Source of the DNA: Naegleria gruberi
Lineage: Eukaryota
Length of the DNA stretch: 64,000 nucleotides
Assembly (NCBI GenBank): GCA_000004985.1
Contig: GG738859.1
Strand: one strand, 5' to 3'
A program made the position numbers and the translations under genes. The notes beneath the pieces were generated by a model. That model had not been told where the DNA came from. It saw only the letters and a program-made list of their open reading frames with translations, and did not search any database. Below, in pieces: positions 2,249-28,800 of the stretch (positions are counted from its first letter, which is position 1; each line of letters begins with the position of its first letter).

Positions 2249-4174
2249 ATGAAACCCTTGTCGTCTTCCTCAACTTGTACAACAACAAGAAAACCATTAC
2301 GGGAGGTGGTTTTTATGGATGAAAGTAAATTACCATCATTGGATTTGCCATCTATCGTGATGATCGGAGGAGATTCATCTTCCATTGATGGAGTTTCTTC
2401 ATCATCCAATTCTTCATCACCTAATCAACCAATGATTGTATTGAGTCATACGGATAATCGTCATCAGAGAATTACCTCTATGCAATTTAATTCAATGAAG
2501 GCTATTCAGGAGCATATGGGTATTTTAGAAGATGATGGAGAGGATGAAGATTCGAATACAGATTCATCAACTAATAGTAGTATTACTAGTAGTCAGGGAC
2601 AAACCGCAATTAGTACAAAATCAAATAATATTCATTCAACATCATCTCCGAGTAGATATGAAAGCAGTCTTTCACCACCATCCTCACCACAAACATCATC
2701 CTCACCTAAAATGTCATCTCCACTGACAGGTTTATTAAAATTGGCATTGAGAAAGAAGAATTCAAAATCTACCTCACCATCCACTTCAAGTGATAATGTT
2801 TCCAATTCTTCGTCAATGAGTACGAGCACATCATTATCAGAAAAGAAAAAGAAAAAGAAGGAGAATCATCACAAAATTGATCTCAATGACTATCTCTTTA
2901 CATACGAGAAGGTCATTAGTAATGGAGAAACAAGTCAACTCTTTCTCAAGTTTTTGACAATGAAGAAAACTTCTGAAAGCTTACTTTTCGTACTGAAATT
3001 TAGAGAACTGAAATCAGCATTTAAGTCAATAAGCGATCAAGCCAGTGACAAGCAGGAACAATATAGAAATACTCTGAAAACAATCGAGGAATTATACAAG
3101 TGCTTCTTTGCATTTGATTCTTCTATGGAATTGAATTTACCACTCAATTTACATGAGCCAACCACAAAGATAATGGAAGAATACGAATCCAAGAGAGAAA
3201 AACTTGCAGATGATGAAATTGTTTCAATCATTTCTAATATTTTGAGCGAGTTTAAAAAAATCGAGAGCTATTTAAATTTGAATTTGAAAGAGTGTCAATT
3301 TTTGGAATTTTTGGAATGGGAAAAGTTTAGAAAATTTATTACCAATAAGGGGTCGATACATTTAGCAGAGATTGCAGAAATGAAACCTTTCTCTCATACA
3401 TCATTTGTTGAAAGTTTAGTGACAGAAATGAGCAAACCAAGAATTACTGTCAAACAAGCAAAACAGATCAAACATCTAGTGGTAAAGAACACATCTATAT
3501 GGACACCAATTATAACAGAATCCAATTATATAGTGTCATTATCCAACAATCAATACTTACTAGGCGAGGAAGAGTCAAACTCTTCTAATAAGGGTGTTTA
3601 TTTTTTCAAGTATGAGATTACATTCCCATATCCAAAACAAGCTGTCATCAACACACTTCTCAGCTCAAAGCTCAGATTCAAGTTTGATAAGAATACTAAA
3701 ATGCTTTCAAAGATTGATTATTTCCCTAAAGAAGATAACGAAAATCTGGCAACTTGCATCTCACAAGAGGTTTATGATTTTCCTTTCCCTTTCCAATCAA
3801 GAGAAATGGTTCTTGCCTGTGCTGTATTCAATGATTTGACCGATAATTCAACCATGTTATGTCTGAGGTCGTGTGAAAGTGATAAAGCTGTCAAGCTCAA
3901 AAAAACTGTCAAGGCAAAGAATGTTGGCTGTTGGATTTTCCAAGATTTGAATGGAACTCACACTAGATATATACAATTCGTTGGAGCTGATTTCAAAGGT
4001 TTTCTACCACCAAAACTAGTTAAATCAAACGTTGCTAAACGTGCCAAGTATTACTATGCAGATAGTTTGAAAATGTTCGAACATCCAGAAGACGATTTCA
4101 AGGAGCCACAGGATGATCCTCTTTATTCTGGTTTTATGGATACACTCAAGGAAAATGGTGGGTTATCTATTTGA
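2249..4174 (+). CDS. Regulator of G-protein signalling (RGS) domain protein with a C-terminal START/Bet v1-like lipid-binding domain and a Ser-rich N-terminus
   Basis: Single 641-aa ORF with a real ATG. The central segment YLFTYEKVISNGETSQLFLKFLTMKKTSESLLFVLKFRELK...FLEFLEWEKF matches the RGS-box pattern (FLxSEFSEENLxFW / ...RFL). The C-terminal roughly 190 aa (FPFQSREMVLACAVFNDL...KAVKLKKTVKAKNVGCWIFQDLNGTHTRYIQFVGADFKGFLPPKLVKSNVAKRA) fits the START-domain pattern (P.S.RDFV...VRA...G....P....T.VT...D.KG.IP). The N-terminus is S/T-rich and low-complexity. Confidence 0.6.
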   Translation: MKPLSSSSTCTTTRKPLREVVFMDESKLPSLDLPSIVMIGGDSSSIDGVSSSSNSSSPNQPMIVLSHTDNRHQRITSMQFNSMKAIQEHMGILEDDGEDEDSNTDSSTNSSITSSQGQTAISTKSNNIHSTSSPSRYESSLSPPSSPQTSSSPKMSSPLTGLLKLALRKKNSKSTSPSTSSDNVSNSSSMSTSTSLSEKKKKKKENHHKIDLNDYLFTYEKVISNGETSQLFLKFLTMKKTSESLLFVLKFRELKSAFKSISDQASDKQEQYRNTLKTIEELYKCFFAFDSSMELNLPLNLHEPTTKIMEEYESKREKLADDEIVSIISNILSEFKKIESYLNLNLKECQFLEFLEWEKFRKFITNKGSIHLAEIAEMKPFSHTSFVESLVTEMSKPRITVKQAKQIKHLVVKNTSIWTPIITESNYIVSLSNNQYLLGEEESNSSNKGVYFFKYEITFPYPKQAVINTLLSSKLRFKFDKNTKMLSKIDYFPKEDNENLATCISQEVYDFPFPFQSREMVLACAVFNDLTDNSTMLCLRSCESDKAVKLKKTVKAKNVGCWIFQDLNGTHTRYIQFVGADFKGFLPPKLVKSNVAKRAKYYYADSLKMFEHPEDDFKEPQDDPLYSGFMDTLKENGGLSI

Positions 4175-4768: not shown

Positions 4769-5743
4769 ATGACTGATCAATCTGTTGACGATTTTGAACT
4801 TTCTGATGATAATTCTTTAAAGATTATTGTTGTTGGTAGGTTTGTGAATGATGAAATATTTGTATTCAAATAACAACCAATAACTAATAACAAAATATTT
4901 AAAAATTAGGTGATGCGAGTGTTGGTAAAACATGCATGTTAATTTCATACAGGTAAGATATTTGGAATTTTTCATATTTAAATTCTTGATTATCCACCAC
5001 ACTTCAACATTATAATGAATGACATGTGTCATCATTGTGCTTTTTAACAACAAATATCATCAACAGTAATAACGAATTTCCAACAGAGTATAACCCTACA
5101 GTATTTGGTTAGTAGTCATTCAAATAATTATAATATTCATAATTCTTTTCTAATTCAATAACAACTTTGATGAATTTTTGAATATACAGACAATTATACA
5201 GCTAACGTAGTTTACAAGGAAAAAACTGTCACATTGGGATTATGGGATACTGCTGGTACTGACGAAGTAAGTAAACATGGTGATGTTCCGTGCCTTTTAA
5301 CATTTGAATAGTATGATCAATTGAGACCGTTATCTTATCCCGACACTCACATTTTTGTTATTGTATTTGATTTAACTAATAAGGATTCACTTGAATCAGT
5401 TACGAAGAAGTGGGTTCCTGAAATTAAAGAACACACTAAAGATAGACCAGGTGGTGTACCATTCATCATTGTTGGAAACAAATTGGACTTGAGAAATGAC
5501 CCAAAGGAAAAGGATAAATGTGTTCCAAGGTGAGTTGATTTTCAATTACAATAATCTAATTGAGATTGTAGATCTGATGGTGAAAAAGTTAAAACAAAGA
5601 CTGGAGCTGCTCGTCTCTTAGAATGTAGTGCCAAGACTCAAGAAGGACTGAAAGATGTATTTGAACAATGCATAGAAGTTGTCATAGAAAACTACATGAA
5701 AAAGAAGAAGGGAGGAAAGAAGGATAAATGTACACTCCAATAA
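4769..5743 (+). CDS. Atypical Rho/Rac-family small GTPase in six exons. Approximate exons: 4769-4835, 4910-4952, 5067-5107, 5190/1-5266, 5312-5529, 5572-5743.
   Basis: Spliced product: MTDQSVDDFELSDDNSLKIIVVGDASVGKTCMLISYSNNEFPTEYNPTVFDNYTANVVYKEKTVTLGLWDTAGTDEYDQLRPLSYPDTHIFVIVFDLTNKDSLESVTKKWVPEIKEHTKDRPGGVPFIIVGNKLDLRNDPKEKDKCVPRSDGEKVKTKTGAARLLECSAKTQEGLKDVFEQCIEVVIENYMKKKKGGKKDKCTLQ. Rho signatures present: the GxxxxGKT P-loop, TVFDNY, the LWDTAG switch II region, NKxD, SAK and a polybasic stretch followed by a CaaX-like CTLQ. There are five GT-AG introns of about 74, 114, 83, 45 and 42 bp. Track ORF 5321..5533 is exon 5. Confidence 0.85.
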
Positions 5744-5800
5744 CTCATATTTTTGTAATTTGATTTTACCAATCTTTTTACAGGGAGGTAAAATATTGTA

Positions 5801-7494
5801 TTAATGTAACTGTTGCATACGCTTTTTTAACATTATAACCTGTTCACTCGTTGATAAATTCAGTGAGGTATCGAAATCATTAATTATGGAATTATTTGTT
5901 GGTTTAACATTATCTACACTTCTTACATCTCCTTGCTGTTTCAACAAATTGATTTGGGATCTCATATAATCAAACATTTTACATTCTGATTGATGGGTAA
6001 GTGTACGAATTCTTTCGTCCATCAATCGATAATTTTCTTTTGCAACTCGTTGTTCAATCTTGGTCAGGGAATTCTTAATTTTAGTTCCAACCTTTTCATA
6101 GAATTTAGTTTTAAATTCCTCAACTTCTTTTTTCACAACTGTTTCAATATTGCCTTCCAAGAATGCCACCTTTTTTCTTAATTCTTCAATTTCCTTTTCC
6201 ATAGATTCCATCTTCTTATCGTTGGTATTTACATCTTTGAATCCACCTAGGGATGTTCTCGTTCTAGTTGGCCTGTTAATCTCATTGACTTTTTCAGACA
6301 GCTCCTCCAAGTTCTTTCTTGTTTTATGAACTGCAGCATCTTTGAGTTTAGCTCTTTGTCGTCTCTCTTCGAGGATTAGATTTTCCTTATTAACTTGTTG
6401 ATCTTTCTTTGCTATTGTAGCCGAAGCAGGTCTAGTAGTGGCGGTTCCTAGAGACTTTTTCTTTTCCTCAACCTGGGCACGGGTGGTAGTAATGATTGCG
6501 GATTGAATTTGATTAGAGACATCTTTGAGAGGGGAGGTTTTCGTTGATGGTTGTGATTCCCTCTTGGTAACCACTTCTTTCTTTGGAGAGATGAGGTGTG
6601 GCTTTTCAATCTCTGATTTTTTAAAGTTTGGAAGGGATGCAGCTAGAGGGTTGCTTCTTGCTGTGGATGATTTCTTAAATGTTGGAATAGATACAAGGGG
6701 AGAACTAGAGATTTCTTTAAGTGAAACATTACTGTAATTTAGCATTACTGTTCCATTATTATAATTATCAAAATTAAATAAACCTGATTCATTGGAACTG
6801 ATATTAAACATGAGGTCGTCATATTTGGCGCTTAATTCTTTGGATAATTCGTCTGTTGTGAAAGAAGCTGGGTTAAATGATGGCATTTCAATTGTACAAG
6901 CCTTTGCACTTTTAATGGGTGAGAATGAAGTTGGAGATTTGGTTGGCGATTCTCTGAGGCAGTCATTAATGGATCTGATTTCAGTATTTTCAGGTACTGA
7001 GGATGGCATATCTCTGAGAATGAATATCTTATTAAGGTAAACTCGATTTCCTCCAAAAGTTTCACTAACCGAGAATTTAAAGAAGGAAAAATCTGCTGGT
7101 ATTGATTGAATAGAAAAAAGATGAAGTGAAGTATTTTCCTCAGCTCTTAGACTTGACCAATGAATAAAAGGACCATCCCTACTTCGTGAAATGAAGAGTT
7201 TAATTTTCTTTGGATTGAAAACATATCTCTTCTTGCAATACCATCCAACACACGAGACTGGATACGAGTGCAAAGGCACTTGAATTGTACAGTCTTGTGG
7301 AAGTCCAACATCGGTGATCCAAATTTCATCCTCTTCATCATCGGCCAATATACTGTTACATGGGTAGTCCTCCTGTTCTGTTGTTCGGGAAACAATGCAA
7401 GCACCCTTAATTTTTGAGCAGAGGTTAGTCTCGTGCTTGAACATTTTTTTTAAATTTCTGATAAACTGATTTTTGTATTTTTTTGGCGGGCTCA
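5801..7494 (-). CDS. Coiled-coil protein of unknown function with a Cys-containing N-terminal domain. The probable real ATG is at about 7494 (MSPPKKYKNQF...).
   Basis: Long minus-strand ORF. The track start at 7525 is a GTG, and the first ATG gives MSPPKK... The C-terminal third is heptad-rich (EKEIEELRKKVAFLEGNIETVVKKEVEEFKTKFYEK...), and the middle is S/T/P-rich. I recognise no family. Confidence 0.5.
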
Positions 7495-25800: not shown

Positions 25801-28800
25801 ATCTTTGACTAACAAAGTTAAGCAATCTGTAGGAAATGTTTCTGTTAGAAAGTCTTTCAGACACAGACTTGAAAACAATCAACGTTAAAATGACAGGGAT
25901 TGAGCAGAGCATTTCACATCTTTCAAACACATTACAAATAGCAACGAAATATCCTTTCGAAAGTCTCTTACTGCAATTGTAGCATTGATCAATGCAAATA
26001 TCTAACAAGTTGGGATTTGATAACAGTGCATTCTCGATAGCTTCAATACCAATTCTTCTGTAGACAAGAGATCTGGAGCAGAGAATTTCATCAATCCACT
26101 TCAAGATGGTAATACCAAGTGATTCAATTTCAGTATTTTCTGGAGGTAGTGTTGTTGTTGGTGGTGGGTTATTAGTTCTCAAAACAGAATCTAAAATAGA
26201 CAAGGAGGATCTGAGAGAACTTCTTCCTTCCCTTATAACAACAGTGCTAGTATCGTCATCTGCAGTATCTTCATCCTCAGCATTTTCATCATTAATCTTT
26301 GGATTTCTCTTGTTTTCCATTCTAGTTGAGGCGCTCCACTGTCTTAAAAGTTCCATATTACTCTCAAAGAATTCTCCCAATAACAAACCAGCAACAGCAC
26401 CACATGATCTATACTTCATTCTTGTAGTCTTCTTCTTGAAGATGCTTCCCATGTTTCTCTTTTCCTCTGGATCTTTGAGCTTTTCTATTGTTTGAGAAAG
26501 ACTTGCCAATTCTTCTTCTTCTCTCTTGATACTAGATCTGCCATAACCTGTCCATTGAATGGCAAATAACATTAACTCCTTTCTCAAGTTCTTATCAAAG
26601 GTTCTATAGCCAGGTTTTGGCGCATAATAGTACAATTTTCTAGAAATGTTATCTATAACAATAAAGAGATGATGCCTCAATGACTGTAAATCAATATTGT
26701 ACATATTTCCTGGCTGTTTGCTGTACTGAATTTGTTCTTCAATAAATTGGAGGAACTTTTCCTTGATAAATTCATTTTCTTTGAGTGTAGTGTCTTTAAT
26801 ATTGCTTGATAAACGTGAGTAGACTCTTGATATTTGAACTCTGAGGGAGTCTTTCTTTTTCTTATTCTTCTTTTGCTTGTCCATAATGTAGGCCTCATTC
26901 TCCAAAACCTTGATACTATCCAGAAGAATTTCGAGTAAATCATCAGGAACGGCACCCAGAGCATTCACTGCAGCTGTTGATTGTTTTTCATAATTTGACT
27001 TGAGATGTGGATAAATCATCGCATATAAATCTTTTGCTGAAGAAATTCTTGGTGTTGTTCGTATGATAGTTGCCTTAGTGAGAGGCTCGTCTTCTTCCTT
27101 TTGTCTGAATAGATTCTTTCTGGCCATAGAGCAAGCCAAGTTTACAAAGTGACTCCACAATTCAACAATTCTCTGAATTTCACTTGTGACTGTCATTCTT
27201 GTATAGACACTATCAAGCAAGTTGTTCAATCTCAATATTCTCTTTGTGATTTGATTGAGAGCAATGTGGGAAGTTGGTTGGCAATAAATAGATAAATCTT
27301 TTCCTATTAAACGTAACATGTCAGTAAGGAAATCAGAGAAGGAAAGATTAGGGTCTGCTATGAATTTCTCAAAGCTTTCAGGAGGGCTTGTTTCCTCGCC
27401 TTTCCAAATATTTTGAATGTGTCTTAGACCAGATTCTTCAATAAGATCAGCAACTGTTGATGTGTCTGTGTATCTCTTTTTTTCGCTCTCAAGTATTTTC
27501 AAGGTAATTGTTCTCACAAGAGTAAATATTTTCAAGCTGGATACTCTAATATATGGATTCAAGTTACAGAGTAAAACAACACCAACAGCTTCTATTGGTG
27601 ATGGATCAAAGTAACTGGAAATAGGTTGATCTAGACCTTCTGACTTGAGTTTTCCAAAAACTGTTGGAAGTTTCATTCCAGATGGAGTGTCTGTTTCTGG
27701 ATTATTAAGGTTGGAAATCCACTTCTCCAACAAGAATAAAAACTTTTTCAAAACTGACTTGAGTAAATCAGATCTAAAATCATCAATAGCCATAATCATT
27801 TCTGCAAAGGAGTGTACAAGGACTGGTCTTAAATCAGTATGATAATCTAAAAGTTGTAACATGGTCTCCCAAGATACATCTCTAATGTCACCATATTGAT
27901 GGACAACAAATCTACACAACATATCACAAAGTTCCTTCTTGGTAAACTCACTTGGCAAAATACGAGGAATACATGAGATAGCAGTAACAGCAACTCTTAA
28001 ACTAGCATACTTGTCTTTGGATAAATTTTCGTGCAAAGGTTTAGTATGGTTGGATTGCAAAAAGTTTCCATAAACCTGCATACATTGTTTTAGGATTGCA
28101 CTCAACTTGGAAGAAATTTCCTCTTGATATTGATACAAACCTACAGCATCTAAAAGCTTGTCAGTCTTTGCCAAAAAGTTTGTTCCATAAAAAGAAGATG
28201 CCTTTGAAGCAAAACTAGCACTCAAAGTTCTATAGCTGGAGAAAGGAGAAGACATTCTCACTGATTGAGTAAAATCCTTCTCCAAATCATCAGCTTCTGT
28301 TTCATTGCTTGATCTACTTTGAGTTCTATCCAAAAGTTTGTGAACCCAAGGGAACTCTGATGTTTTTTCATCAGTTCCAAGAATGGAGGAAATTTTCTTC
28401 ATATCATTCACCTCAGCAATAGCTAAAAATGCTCGAAGTGCCAAGTAGACTGTTTCAGGAAGACAACTTGAACTACTGTCCAAATCTAAATTCTTAATGA
28501 CCATATTTTTCATTGCATAGTCCATTCTGTTGTTTGCTACCATTACAATTACATCAACTGTGGCATCATAAATGTTGTCCAAGGCTGGTATTGATGGTGG
28601 CACTTTCTTTCCACTCAATAATAAAGCAATTGTTTTTGATAATATCTCAATTACTGTCGATTGGTCAGACTCGTTAGCAATTTTCAAATAGTAACCAAGG
28701 GTATGAAGTAAGCAATCCAATCCCATTAATTTGGTTCCCTTATCCTTGCATAACCTGAAAATATCTGTTAAAAATTCTTTGAAGGGAGCAATAAATACTG

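What the first reader, a model, noticed from the sequence alone, without database searches (positions are those of the whole stretch)
4769..5743. Rho-family GTPase with Ala/Ser at the G12/A13 position and Thr in place of the catalytic Gln61 (DTAGTDE)
The P-loop reads GDASVGKT where Rac/Rho have GDGAVGKT. Switch II reads WDTAGTDEYD where Rac/Rho have WDTAGQEDYD. Substitutions at these two positions characterise constitutively GTP-bound, GAP-insensitive atypical Rho proteins such as Rnd and RhoH. The protein keeps a polybasic-CaaX tail, so it is probably membrane-targeted and regulated by expression rather than by nucleotide cycling.
Basis: partly seen in the sequence, partly recalled or inferred. 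Interest (0 to 1): 0.5.

Follow-up and report, generated by a model that had tools for sequence, protein, structure and literature searches.

The report
Naegleria Rac-like GTPase lacking catalytic residues
This is a real, strongly conserved gene of the amoeba Naegleria gruberi for a Rac-like molecular switch whose two key "off-switch" residues are replaced (Gly12 to Ala, Gln61 to Thr); it is probably locked mostly "on", an independent protist counterpart of the animal Rnd/RhoH proteins, but its biochemistry has not been tested.

Summary
Window 4769-5743 (+) holds a 6-exon, 205-aa gene with P-loop GDASVGKT, switch II WDTAGTDEYD and tail KKKKGGKKDK-CTLQ. The Thr codon lies inside exon 4, next to DTAG.

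The spliced protein is identical to the manually corrected Naegleria gruberi model XP_002678988.1*, listed only as "Rac" by Herman et al. 2021. In N. lovaniensis the whole WDTAGTDEYDQLR is one exon, and dN/dS is 0.02.

Ala12, Thr61 and a C-terminal Gln define a 100%-bootstrap clade: Naegleria, Willaertia and environmental relatives. The clade also has a half-length Rho insert and an acidic N-terminal extension.

The protein is closer to Rac1 (48%) than to Rnd3 (39%), so its likeness to Rnd/RhoH is convergent.

The "constitutively GTP-bound, GAP-insensitive" reading is plausible by analogy (KRAS G12A, HRAS Q61T, Rnd), but it is inference. Ala is the mildest residue-12 change, and Thr61 is the normal residue of Rap, which cycles with its own GAP. 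Ser13 is not diagnostic.

Verdict: a catalogued gene and a new member of a known kind, an atypical, probably GTPase-deficient Rho. Interest is modest.

The parts
4769..5743 (+). Complete coding region (ATG to TAA) of the atypical Rac-like GTPase: 6 exons, 205 aa. It equals N. gruberi XP_002678988.1 (corrected model).
   Evidence: splicing and translation. (identical curated sequence). (Pfam Ras PF00071, E = 2.5e-48).
4769..4835 (+). Exon 1. It holds the acidic N-terminal extension (residues 1-15, MTDQSVDDFELSDDN, 4769-4813), strand beta1 and the first base of the Gly23 codon.
   Evidence: The D-D/E-F-D/E-L motif is present in 6 of the 8 clade members aligned; P0009 and P0010 lack it. pLDDT is below 50 for residues 1-8.
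4910..4952 (+). Exon 2. It holds the P-loop GDASVGKT (4910-4932). Ala25 = Rac1 Gly12 at 4915-4917; Ser26 = Rac1 Ala13 at 4918-4920.
   Evidence: Ala at this column in 7 of 8 clade members versus Gly in 101 of 103 background Rho proteins.
5067..5107 (+). Exon 3. Switch I / effector loop, NNEFPTEYNPTVF. Tyr32 and Thr35 equivalents are kept; Asn replaces Rac1 Ile33.
5190..5266 (+). Exon 4. Strands beta2-beta3 and the start of switch II, WDTAGTDE (5243-5266). Thr74 = Rac1 Gln61 at 5258-5260.
   Evidence: Thr in 7 of 8 clade members versus Gln in 85 and Ser in 18 of 103 background proteins. The stretch is a contiguous exon in N. lovaniensis.
5312..5529 (+). Exon 5. It holds the rest of switch II (YDQLRPLSYP; Arg81 is the salt-bridge Arg), helix alpha3 (Glu113), an extra KDRPGG loop, NKLD (5477-5488) and the first half of the shortened Rho-insert region (from 5489).
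5572..5743 (+). Exon 6. It holds the rest of the shortened insert (to about 5590), SAK (5627-5635), the C-terminal helix, polybasic KKKKGGKKDK (5699-5728), CaaX CTLQ (5729-5740) and the stop (5741-5743).
   Evidence: The C-terminal residue is Gln in 8 of 8 clade members versus Leu in 65 of 103 background proteins.

Best explanation
The locus encodes a functional, membrane-anchored Rac-like small GTPase of Naegleria gruberi. It belongs to a small, old heterolobosean subfamily in which the two residues that drive GTP hydrolysis in Rho proteins are replaced.

Shown:
- The gene model is correct and the protein is under strong purifying selection.
- All nucleotide- and Mg-binding elements are intact: GxxxxGKT, Thr35, DxxG, NKxD and SAK.
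- The effector loop, Trp56, and the Arg and Glu positions of the switch II-helix 3 salt bridge described in RhoA are kept.
- Gly12 is Ala and Gln61 is Thr throughout the clade.
- The tail is polybasic with a CaaX ending in Gln.

Inferred:
- The protein binds GTP normally. Without the Gln61 carboxamide that positions the attacking water, and with a side chain at position 12 that hinders a RhoGAP arginine finger, both intrinsic and RhoGAP-stimulated hydrolysis are strongly reduced.
- It therefore sits mostly in the GTP-bound, effector-competent state on membranes, via a farnesyl group plus the basic patch.
- Its output is then set by abundance, localisation or modification rather than by a GEF/GAP cycle, as for animal Rnd and RhoH.
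- Its Rac-like switch I suggests it engages, or competes for, Rac effectors of the actin machinery.
For: Gene reality and model:
- Searches give the gene model.
- One search shows identity to the curated XP_002678988.1*.
- Searches show switch II in one exon in N. lovaniensis, with dN = 0.028, dS = 1.39 and dN/dS = 0.020.
- One search shows a syntenic downstream neighbour.
- One search shows an intron-free ortholog ORF.

Family:
- Pfam Ras.
- Best sequence and fold matches are Rac, ROP, RhoA and Cdc42.
- The AF2 model has pLDDT 85.7.

Conserved substitutions:
- Ala12 and Thr61 are each present in 7 of the 8 aligned clade members, C-terminal Gln in all 8. The clade has 100% bootstrap.
- A further representative, P0124, has GDAAVGKS / DSAGTSE / CKQQ.

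Functional analogy from the literature:
- Rnd proteins cannot hydrolyse GTP because of substitutions at RhoA Gly14, Ala61 and Gln63, and they are farnesylated (PMC6696182).
- RhoH is GTPase-deficient (PMC2565660).
- KRAS G12A has 40-80-fold slower intrinsic hydrolysis; all tested G12/G13/Q61 mutants lose 97-99% of GAP-stimulated hydrolysis (PMC6813200).
- HRAS Q61T is transforming, and all codon-61 mutants have reduced hydrolysis.
- The residues corresponding to the RhoA R70-E102 salt bridge are retained as Arg81 and Glu113, so the rest of the active site is conserved.
- A terminal Gln is seen in farnesylated proteins such as Ydj1 (CASQ) and Pex19/Lkb1 (CKQQ), and CKQQ farnesylation is documented (PMC10320760).
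Against: - There is no biochemical or expression evidence for this protein or any ortholog.
- Ala is the smallest possible replacement at position 12, and KRAS G12A keeps a 15-25-fold GAP response.
- One clade member has Pro12, and HRAS G12P is non-transforming.
- Thr61 is the normal residue of Rap, which cycles.
- Ala12 and Thr61 are each kept in 7 of the 8 aligned clade members, across sequences only 59-95% identical to the query. If catalysis were simply abandoned, these positions should be free to drift, as they do among Rnd1-3 (from my own knowledge; not checked here). This suggests the two residues still do something specific.
- N. gruberi has more than 80 Rho genes, many with odd P-loops or switch II. 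Divergence at these positions alone is therefore not rare in this genome.
Confidence: 0.6

Rival explanations
1. It is a normally cycling switch with a dedicated GAP. As in Rap-RapGAP, or Rab-TBC for the glutamine, a partner GAP supplies the catalytic carboxamide in trans, needs no arginine finger, and so tolerates Ala12. Thr61 is conserved because it is part of the GAP-binding surface.
For: - Rap has Thr61. RapGAP inserts an Asn 'thumb'. Rap G12V is still GAP-sensitive, and Thr61 is needed for GAP binding rather than for catalysis (PMC2265111).
- Thr61 and the small Ala12 are each kept in 7 of the 8 aligned clade members.
- dN/dS is very low, 0.02.
Against: - The Rap residues that grip RapGAP (Gln63, Phe64) are Glu and Tyr here (DTAGTDEY). 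The authors of PMC2265111 expected Glu at position 63 to cause charge repulsion and inhibit RapGAP binding.
- The protein is Rac-like throughout.
- No candidate GAP has been identified.
- No Rho-family precedent turned up in the papers read here.
Confidence: 0.15
2. It is a slow but otherwise conventional Rac. The substitutions only lower the intrinsic rate, ordinary RhoGEFs and RhoGAPs still regulate it, and the changes are neutral or tuning drift in a greatly expanded paralog family.
For: - KRAS G12A retains partial GAP stimulation.
- Rap with Thr61 still has measurable intrinsic activity (established knowledge).
- Switch I, switch II, Trp56 and the salt-bridge residues used by regulators are conserved.
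- Naegleria has more than 80 Rho genes with many variants.
Against: - Loss of Gln61 removes 97-99% of arginine-finger GAP catalysis in Ras.
- The double substitution is fixed in nearly all members of a 100%-bootstrap clade rather than drifting.
- It co-occurs with other Rnd-like traits: a farnesyl-type CaaX and an N-terminal extension.
Confidence: 0.2
3. It is an artefact: a wrong exon model or a decaying pseudogene copy of a Rac gene.
For: The original automated N. gruberi model needed manual correction. The public N. fowleri model lacks 19 residues.
Against: - The reading frame is open across six exons with canonical GT-AG introns.
- The model is identical to the curated one.
- Orthologs exist in three further species, plus metagenomes.
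- dN/dS is 0.02 with dS 1.39.
- The Thr codon is inside an exon.
Confidence: 0.01

Closest known systems
Rnd1/Rnd2/Rnd3 (RhoE), animal atypical Rho GTPases
   Same: - Rho-family G domain with the Gly12 and Gln61 equivalents replaced (Rnd3: GDSQCGKT, WDTSGSPYYD; verified against PDB 2V55).
- N-terminal extension.
- Farnesyl-type CaaX.
- Rnd proteins are reported unable to hydrolyse GTP and to be regulated by expression and modification (PMC6696182).
   Different: - Only 39% identical to Rnd3, versus 48% to Rac1.
- Keeps Ala59 (DTAG rather than DTSG).
- Thr rather than Ser at position 61, and Ala rather than Ser at position 12 in Rnd3.
- Half-length Rho insert; the Rnd3 alignment shows a longer one.
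- The extension is acidic, whereas the Rnd extension is basic (KERRA).
- Origin is independent, nested among heterolobosean Racs.
RhoH, vertebrate haematopoietic atypical Rho
   Same: GTPase-deficient through mutation of residues crucial for GTPase activity. Its CaaX is mainly farnesylated. It is proposed to act as a Rac antagonist regulated by expression and phosphorylation (PMC2565660).
   Different: RhoH is found only in vertebrates. Its residues are different (Ser and Asn, from my memory; not verified here). No ITAM-like motif was looked for here. No sequence comparison was run.
Rap1 (Ras family)
   Same: Thr at position 61 in DTAGT. Rap shows that a Thr61 GTPase can still be a cycling switch if its GAP supplies the catalytic residue (PMC2265111).
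   Different: Rap keeps Gly12. The RapGAP-contact residues Gln63 and Phe64 are Glu and Tyr here. The window protein is Rho-family by sequence and fold.
Canonical Rac / plant ROP (best sequence and structure matches)
   Same: 48-52% identity. Same fold (TM about 0.77-0.9), switch I, Trp56, the Arg68-Glu100 salt-bridge residues, and a polybasic-CaaX tail.
   Different: Gly12 to Ala, Gln61 to Thr, Arg66 to Gln, Ile33 to Asn. The insert is 7 residues shorter. There is a 4-residue loop insertion before beta5. NKLD replaces TKLD, and CaaX ends in Gln rather than Leu.
Entamoeba histolytica EhRho1
   Same: A protist Rho-family GTPase that departs from the 'all Rho proteins have the insert helix' rule (PMC3641396).
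   Different: EhRho1 lacks the insert completely. It is reported as a fast exchanger that is not constitutively active. The P-loop and switch II residues of EhRho1 were not checked here.

Membership tests
Ras-superfamily small GTPase (Pfam PF00071) | G domain with G1 GxxxxGK[ST], G2 Thr35, G3 DxxG, G4 [NT]KxD and G5 SA[KL]. | tested here: met
   GDASVGKT, NPTVF, DTAG, NKLD and CSAK are all present. Pfam Ras 164 bits against a cutoff of 21.6.
Rho family | Closest sequence and fold relatives are Rho, Rac or Cdc42 proteins. | tested here: met
   All top 60 PDB sequence hits are Rac, ROP or Cdc42, with E of 1e-50 to 4e-55. Top Foldseek hits are RACB, Rac1, RhoA and RhoC, with probability 1.00.
Rho family | Rho insert of about 13 residues between beta5 and alpha4. 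| tested here: inconclusive
   The spacing from NKxD to CSAK is 31 residues in the whole clade. It is 38 in Rac1 and in 65 of 101 other hits, and 24 in HRas. About half of the insert remains. The AF2 model shows only one 3-residue helical turn there. EhRho1 shows that the insert is not obligatory.
Rho family | Residues of the switch II-helix 3 salt bridge (RhoA Arg70-Glu102) and the P-loop Asp (RhoA Asp13). | tested here: met
   Arg81, Glu113 and Asp24 are present. Arg81 and Glu113 are invariant across 111 homologs, and Asp24 is nearly so. The feature is defined in PMC12969783. This is residue presence only; geometry was not examined.
Rho family | C-terminal polybasic region plus a CaaX prenylation box. 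| tested here: met
   KKKKGGKKDK-CTLQ. Prenylation itself cannot be tested here.
Atypical GTPase-deficient Rho class (functional class: Rnd, RhoH) | Substitution of the Gly12- and Gln61-equivalent catalytic residues. | tested here: met
   Ala25 and Thr74. Each is present in 7 of the 8 aligned clade members.
Atypical GTPase-deficient Rho class (functional class: Rnd, RhoH) | No or negligible GTP hydrolysis, insensitivity to RhoGAPs, predominantly GTP-bound in cells. | not testable with these tools
   Needs single-turnover GTPase and GAP assays and a nucleotide-state measurement.
Rnd subfamily (by descent) | Groups with Rnd1-3, and has the Ala59-equivalent also replaced (DTSG). | tested here: not met
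   39% identity and 125 bits to Rnd3, versus 48% and 182 bits to Rac1. It keeps DTAG. In the NJ tree its nearest neighbours are heterolobosean Racs with only weak support, and no Rnd sequence was included in that tree.
RhoH (by descent) | Vertebrate-restricted ortholog group. | not tested
   No verified RhoH sequence was compared. RhoH is found only in vertebrates (PMC2565660), which makes orthology implausible.
Rap subfamily | Thr61 together with Ras-family relatives and the RapGAP-contact residues Gln63 and Phe64. | tested here: not met
   Thr61 is present, but positions 63 and 64 are Glu and Tyr. All the best relatives are Rho-family.

The most novel reading that the evidence does not exclude
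The clade-wide retention of exactly Thr61 and the smallest possible side chain at position 12 means the protein is not a dead switch. It would be a Rho-family GTPase turned off by a dedicated, non-arginine-finger GAP that supplies the catalytic residue in trans. That would be a Rap/RapGAP-style mechanism evolved independently inside the Rho family of Heterolobosea.
Probability: 0.1. Interest if true: 0.7.

Novelty: new member of a known kind. Interest (0 to 1): 0.3.

Why it matters
GTPase-deficient "atypical" Rho proteins are discussed almost only for animals: Rnd, and RhoH, which is reported only in vertebrates.

A conserved, independently evolved counterpart in Heterolobosea would show that permanently-on Rac-like proteins arose repeatedly in amoeboid eukaryotes. 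The group includes the brain-eating amoeba N. fowleri, which has an ortholog. It would also give Naegleria cell biologists a candidate constitutive regulator, or antagonist, of Rac-driven actin dynamics.

The practical value is modest. The gene is already catalogued, Naegleria has more than 80 Rho paralogs with many variants, and nothing is known about this protein's activity.

Tried and rejected
1. Alternative splicing restoring DTAGQE. Rejected: the Thr codon is inside exon 4, retaining intron 4 runs into an in-frame stop, and N. lovaniensis encodes the motif in one exon.
2. Pseudogene or annotation artefact. Rejected by dN/dS of 0.02 and the curated identical model.
3. Ser13 as a diagnostic feature. 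Rejected: it is common in canonical Racs.
4. Common origin with the environmental Q61S group (GDGSVGKT / DTAGSEE / CLIQ). The NJ tree gives the joint clade only 10% bootstrap, so the groups are treated as separate.
5. Membership of Rnd by descent. Rejected.
6. Classical RapGAP regulation. Disfavoured because Glu occupies the Rap Gln63 position.
7. Paralogs or tandem copies in the window. None: the only other tblastn hit (27647-27871, E = 0.14) has no GTPase motifs.
8. Profile search of 1.84 billion representatives for wider distribution. It returned one further clade representative (P0124). The top of the list was dominated by multi-domain or fused Rac models, so it added little.
9. Literature search for any description of this Naegleria protein's atypical residues. 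Only the catalogue entry 'Rac' was found.

Full report
**1. What is in the sequence**

The window is AT-rich (about 31-38% G+C). At 4769-5743 it carries, on the + strand, a short-intron eukaryotic gene.

- Splicing six exons (4769-4835, 4910-4952, 5067-5107, 5190-5266, 5312-5529, 5572-5743) across five GT-AG introns of 42-114 nt gives a 618-nt CDS and a 205-aa protein.
- The P-loop is GDASVGKT. Ala25 (gcg, 4915-4917) is Rac1 Gly12, and Ser26 is Rac1 Ala13.
- Switch II is WDTAGTDEYD. Thr74 (act, 5258-5260) is Rac1 Gln61.
- The C-terminus is KKKKGGKKDK-CTLQ.
- The Thr codon directly follows 'gat act gct ggt' in exon 4, so no splice choice could give DTAGQE. Retaining the 45-nt intron 4 would run into an in-frame TAG.

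**2. Identity of the gene**

- The protein is a Ras-superfamily G domain (Pfam Ras, E = 2.5e-48).
- Its best solved relatives are plant RACB/ROP, Rac1-3 and Cdc42, with E of 1e-50 to 4e-55.
- The database search puts it in Naegleria: 95% identity to N. lovaniensis in the alignment, 86% to Willaertia magna, and 95% over the aligned part of a truncated N. fowleri model.
- The exact 205-aa sequence appears in Table S8 of Herman et al. 2021 (PMC8296547). There it is the manually corrected N. gruberi model XP_002678988.1*, labelled simply 'Rac'. The window is therefore N. gruberi, and my independently spliced model equals the curated one.
- That paper counts more than 80 Rho genes in N. gruberi and nearly 50 in N. 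fowleri. I found no comment on this protein's unusual residues in the text and supplement passages I searched, nor in other papers searched.

**3. Is the gene real and constrained?**

- In the N. lovaniensis locus (L001) the ortholog has a different intron set, and WDTAGTDEYDQLR is encoded in one exon. Thr61 uses ACA instead of ACT.
- Nei-Gojobori estimates between the two species are dN = 0.028, dS = 1.39 and dN/dS = 0.020. This is very strong purifying selection.
- The downstream neighbour is syntenic. The upstream neighbour is conserved but inverted.
- An environmental ortholog (P0004, 71% identity in the alignment) is a single uninterrupted ORF carrying GDAAVGKT and DTAGTDE.

**4. The substitutions define a subfamily**

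- Among 120 homologs the usual motifs are GDGAVGKT (71 cases) and DTAGQ[ED]D (84 cases).
- Ala12 with Thr61 occurs only in the query's orthologs: N. lovaniensis, N. fowleri, Willaertia, and environmental P0004, P0005, P0006 and P0010. Fragments P0011, P0012 and P0080 show the switch II motif. P0009 has Pro12 and Ala61.
- In an NJ tree of 111 sequences these eight form a clade with 100% bootstrap. Their nearest neighbours are heterolobosean Racs, with weak support.
- A profile search of 1.84 billion representatives added one more member, P0124 (GDAAVGKS / DSAGTSE / CKQQ). It also showed scattered, unrelated Rho proteins with both positions replaced, so such double substitutions arise repeatedly.
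- Other clade signatures:
  - the C-terminal residue is always Gln, versus Leu in 65 of 103 background sequences;
  - Rac1 Ile33 is Asn, Arg66 is Gln and Asp76 is His;
  - NKLD replaces TKLD;
  - there is an acidic N-terminal extension with a D-D/E-F-D/E-L motif in 6 of the 8 aligned members;
  - the NKxD-to-CSAK spacing is 31 residues, versus 38 in Rac1 and most homologs and 24 in HRas, so only about half of the Rho insert remains.
- Ser13 is not diagnostic: 15 of 29 GDGSVGKT proteins have Gln61.
- The AF2 model (pLDDT 85.7) has a standard Rho/Rac fold with only one 3-residue helical turn where the insert helix should be.

**5. Mechanism**

All nucleotide- and Mg-binding elements are intact. 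So are the residues of the RhoA Arg70-Glu102 salt bridge, said to stabilise the Rho active site; they appear here as Arg81 and Glu113. GTP binding is therefore expected. What is missing is the catalytic Gln and the glycine that leaves room for a GAP arginine finger.

Published data support the analogy:
- KRAS G12A hydrolyses GTP 40-80-fold more slowly, and all tested G12/G13/Q61 mutants lose 97-99% of GAP-stimulated hydrolysis (PMC6813200).
- HRAS Q61T is transforming, and all codon-61 mutants have reduced hydrolysis.
- Rnd proteins, substituted at the equivalent of RhoA Gly14, Ala61 and Gln63, cannot hydrolyse GTP, are farnesylated, and are controlled by expression and modification (PMC6696182).
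- RhoH is likewise GTPase-deficient (PMC2565660).

The most likely reading (about 0.6) is a membrane-anchored, mostly GTP-bound Rac-like protein. Anchoring would be by a farnesyl group plus the basic patch. CaaX motifs ending in Gln are farnesyltransferase substrates, and the orthologs' CKQQ is a documented farnesylation motif (PMC10320760). The conserved Rac-type effector loop would let the protein engage, or compete for, Rac effectors.

**6. Caveats and rivals**

- Ala is the mildest possible residue-12 change, and KRAS G12A keeps a 15-25-fold GAP response.
- Thr61 is the native residue of Rap, which cycles normally. RapGAP inserts an Asn in trans, and Rap G12V remains GAP-sensitive (PMC2265111).
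- Ala12 and Thr61 are each kept in 7 of the 8 aligned clade members, across sequences only 59-95% identical to the query. This suggests the two residues are still functionally constrained, which fits a dedicated-GAP model at least as well as a dead-switch model.
- Against a literal RapGAP mechanism: the Rap contact residues Gln63 and Phe64 are Glu and Tyr here, and the authors expected Glu63 to inhibit RapGAP binding.
- A slow, conventional Rac cycle cannot be excluded.
- An artefact or pseudogene is excluded.

**7. Comparison with known families**

- By descent the protein is Rac-like: 48% identity to Rac1 and 39% to Rnd3. The Rnd3 sequence I used was verified against PDB 2V55.
- It keeps Ala59, which Rnd proteins have lost.
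- Its likeness to Rnd (substituted Gly12 and Gln61, farnesyl-type CaaX, N-terminal extension) is therefore convergent.
- Its reduced insert recalls Entamoeba EhRho1, which lacks the insert altogether (PMC3641396).

**8. Verdict**

The gene is already catalogued as a 'Rac'. What appears undescribed is that it represents a conserved heterolobosean subfamily of probably GTPase-deficient Rho proteins. That makes it a new member of a known kind, with modest interest (0.3).

Noticed in passing
window 4836-4909 and 5267-5311; L001 6108-7412: Intron positions are not conserved between N. gruberi and N. lovaniensis orthologs. There is a gruberi-only intron in the Gly23 codon. The switch II intron lies after Glu76 (phase 0) in gruberi but inside the Arg81 codon (phase 2, 14 nt downstream) in lovaniensis. 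A lovaniensis-only intron follows EIK. Lovaniensis introns are 109-424 nt, gruberi introns 42-114 nt.
   Followed up: partly
window 5741-5803: The Rho gene and its downstream neighbour (- strand, about 5801-7456, syntenic with a 529-aa N. lovaniensis gene that has no Pfam domain) converge. Their stop codons are only 57 nt apart, so their 3' UTRs must be tiny or overlapping.
   Followed up: partly
window about 2879-4171 (+); L001 2997-5597 (-): The upstream neighbour (an 825-aa protein without a Pfam hit in N. lovaniensis) is conserved but lies on the opposite strand relative to the Rho gene in the two species. This is a local inversion.
   Followed up: no
P0003 (N. fowleri 'unnamed protein product'): The public N. 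fowleri model of the ortholog lacks 19 residues (PLSYPDTHIFVIVFD.TNK) that are present in all other orthologs. This is probably a mis-spliced gene model.
   Followed up: no
P0064, P0070, P0078, P0081, P0086 and others (environmental): A separate, fairly large group of environmental Rho proteins has GDGSVGKT, DTAGSEE (Gln61 to Ser, Gly12 kept) and a C[LI]IQ tail. It does not group with the Ala12/Thr61 clade in the NJ tree. The organisms are unknown.
   Followed up: partly
P0037 (EukProt transcript GECH01007615): A protein with GDGNVGKT / DTAGSAE / CVMQ is a weakly supported (47% bootstrap) sister to the Ala12/Thr61 clade. It may be an intermediate or an early-branching form of the subfamily.
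   Followed up: no
P0004, P0005, P0006, P0010, P0124: Several orthologs end in CKQQ or CRQQ. CKQQ is the non-canonical farnesylation motif of Lkb1, Pex19 and Nap1L1. Non-canonical motifs of this class (Ydj1, Lkb1) are described as farnesylated but not proteolysed or methylated.
   Followed up: partly
Table S8 of PMC8296547 (N. gruberi Rac rows near XP_002678988.1*): Other N. gruberi 'Rac' paralogs also have odd catalytic motifs. Examples are GATFVGKT / DTAGGED (XP_002669751.1*), GANNVGKT with DTAGQDE (XP_002679763.1*), and GDGNTGKT with a degenerate switch II. Non-canonical Rho proteins are therefore frequent in this genome.
   Followed up: partly
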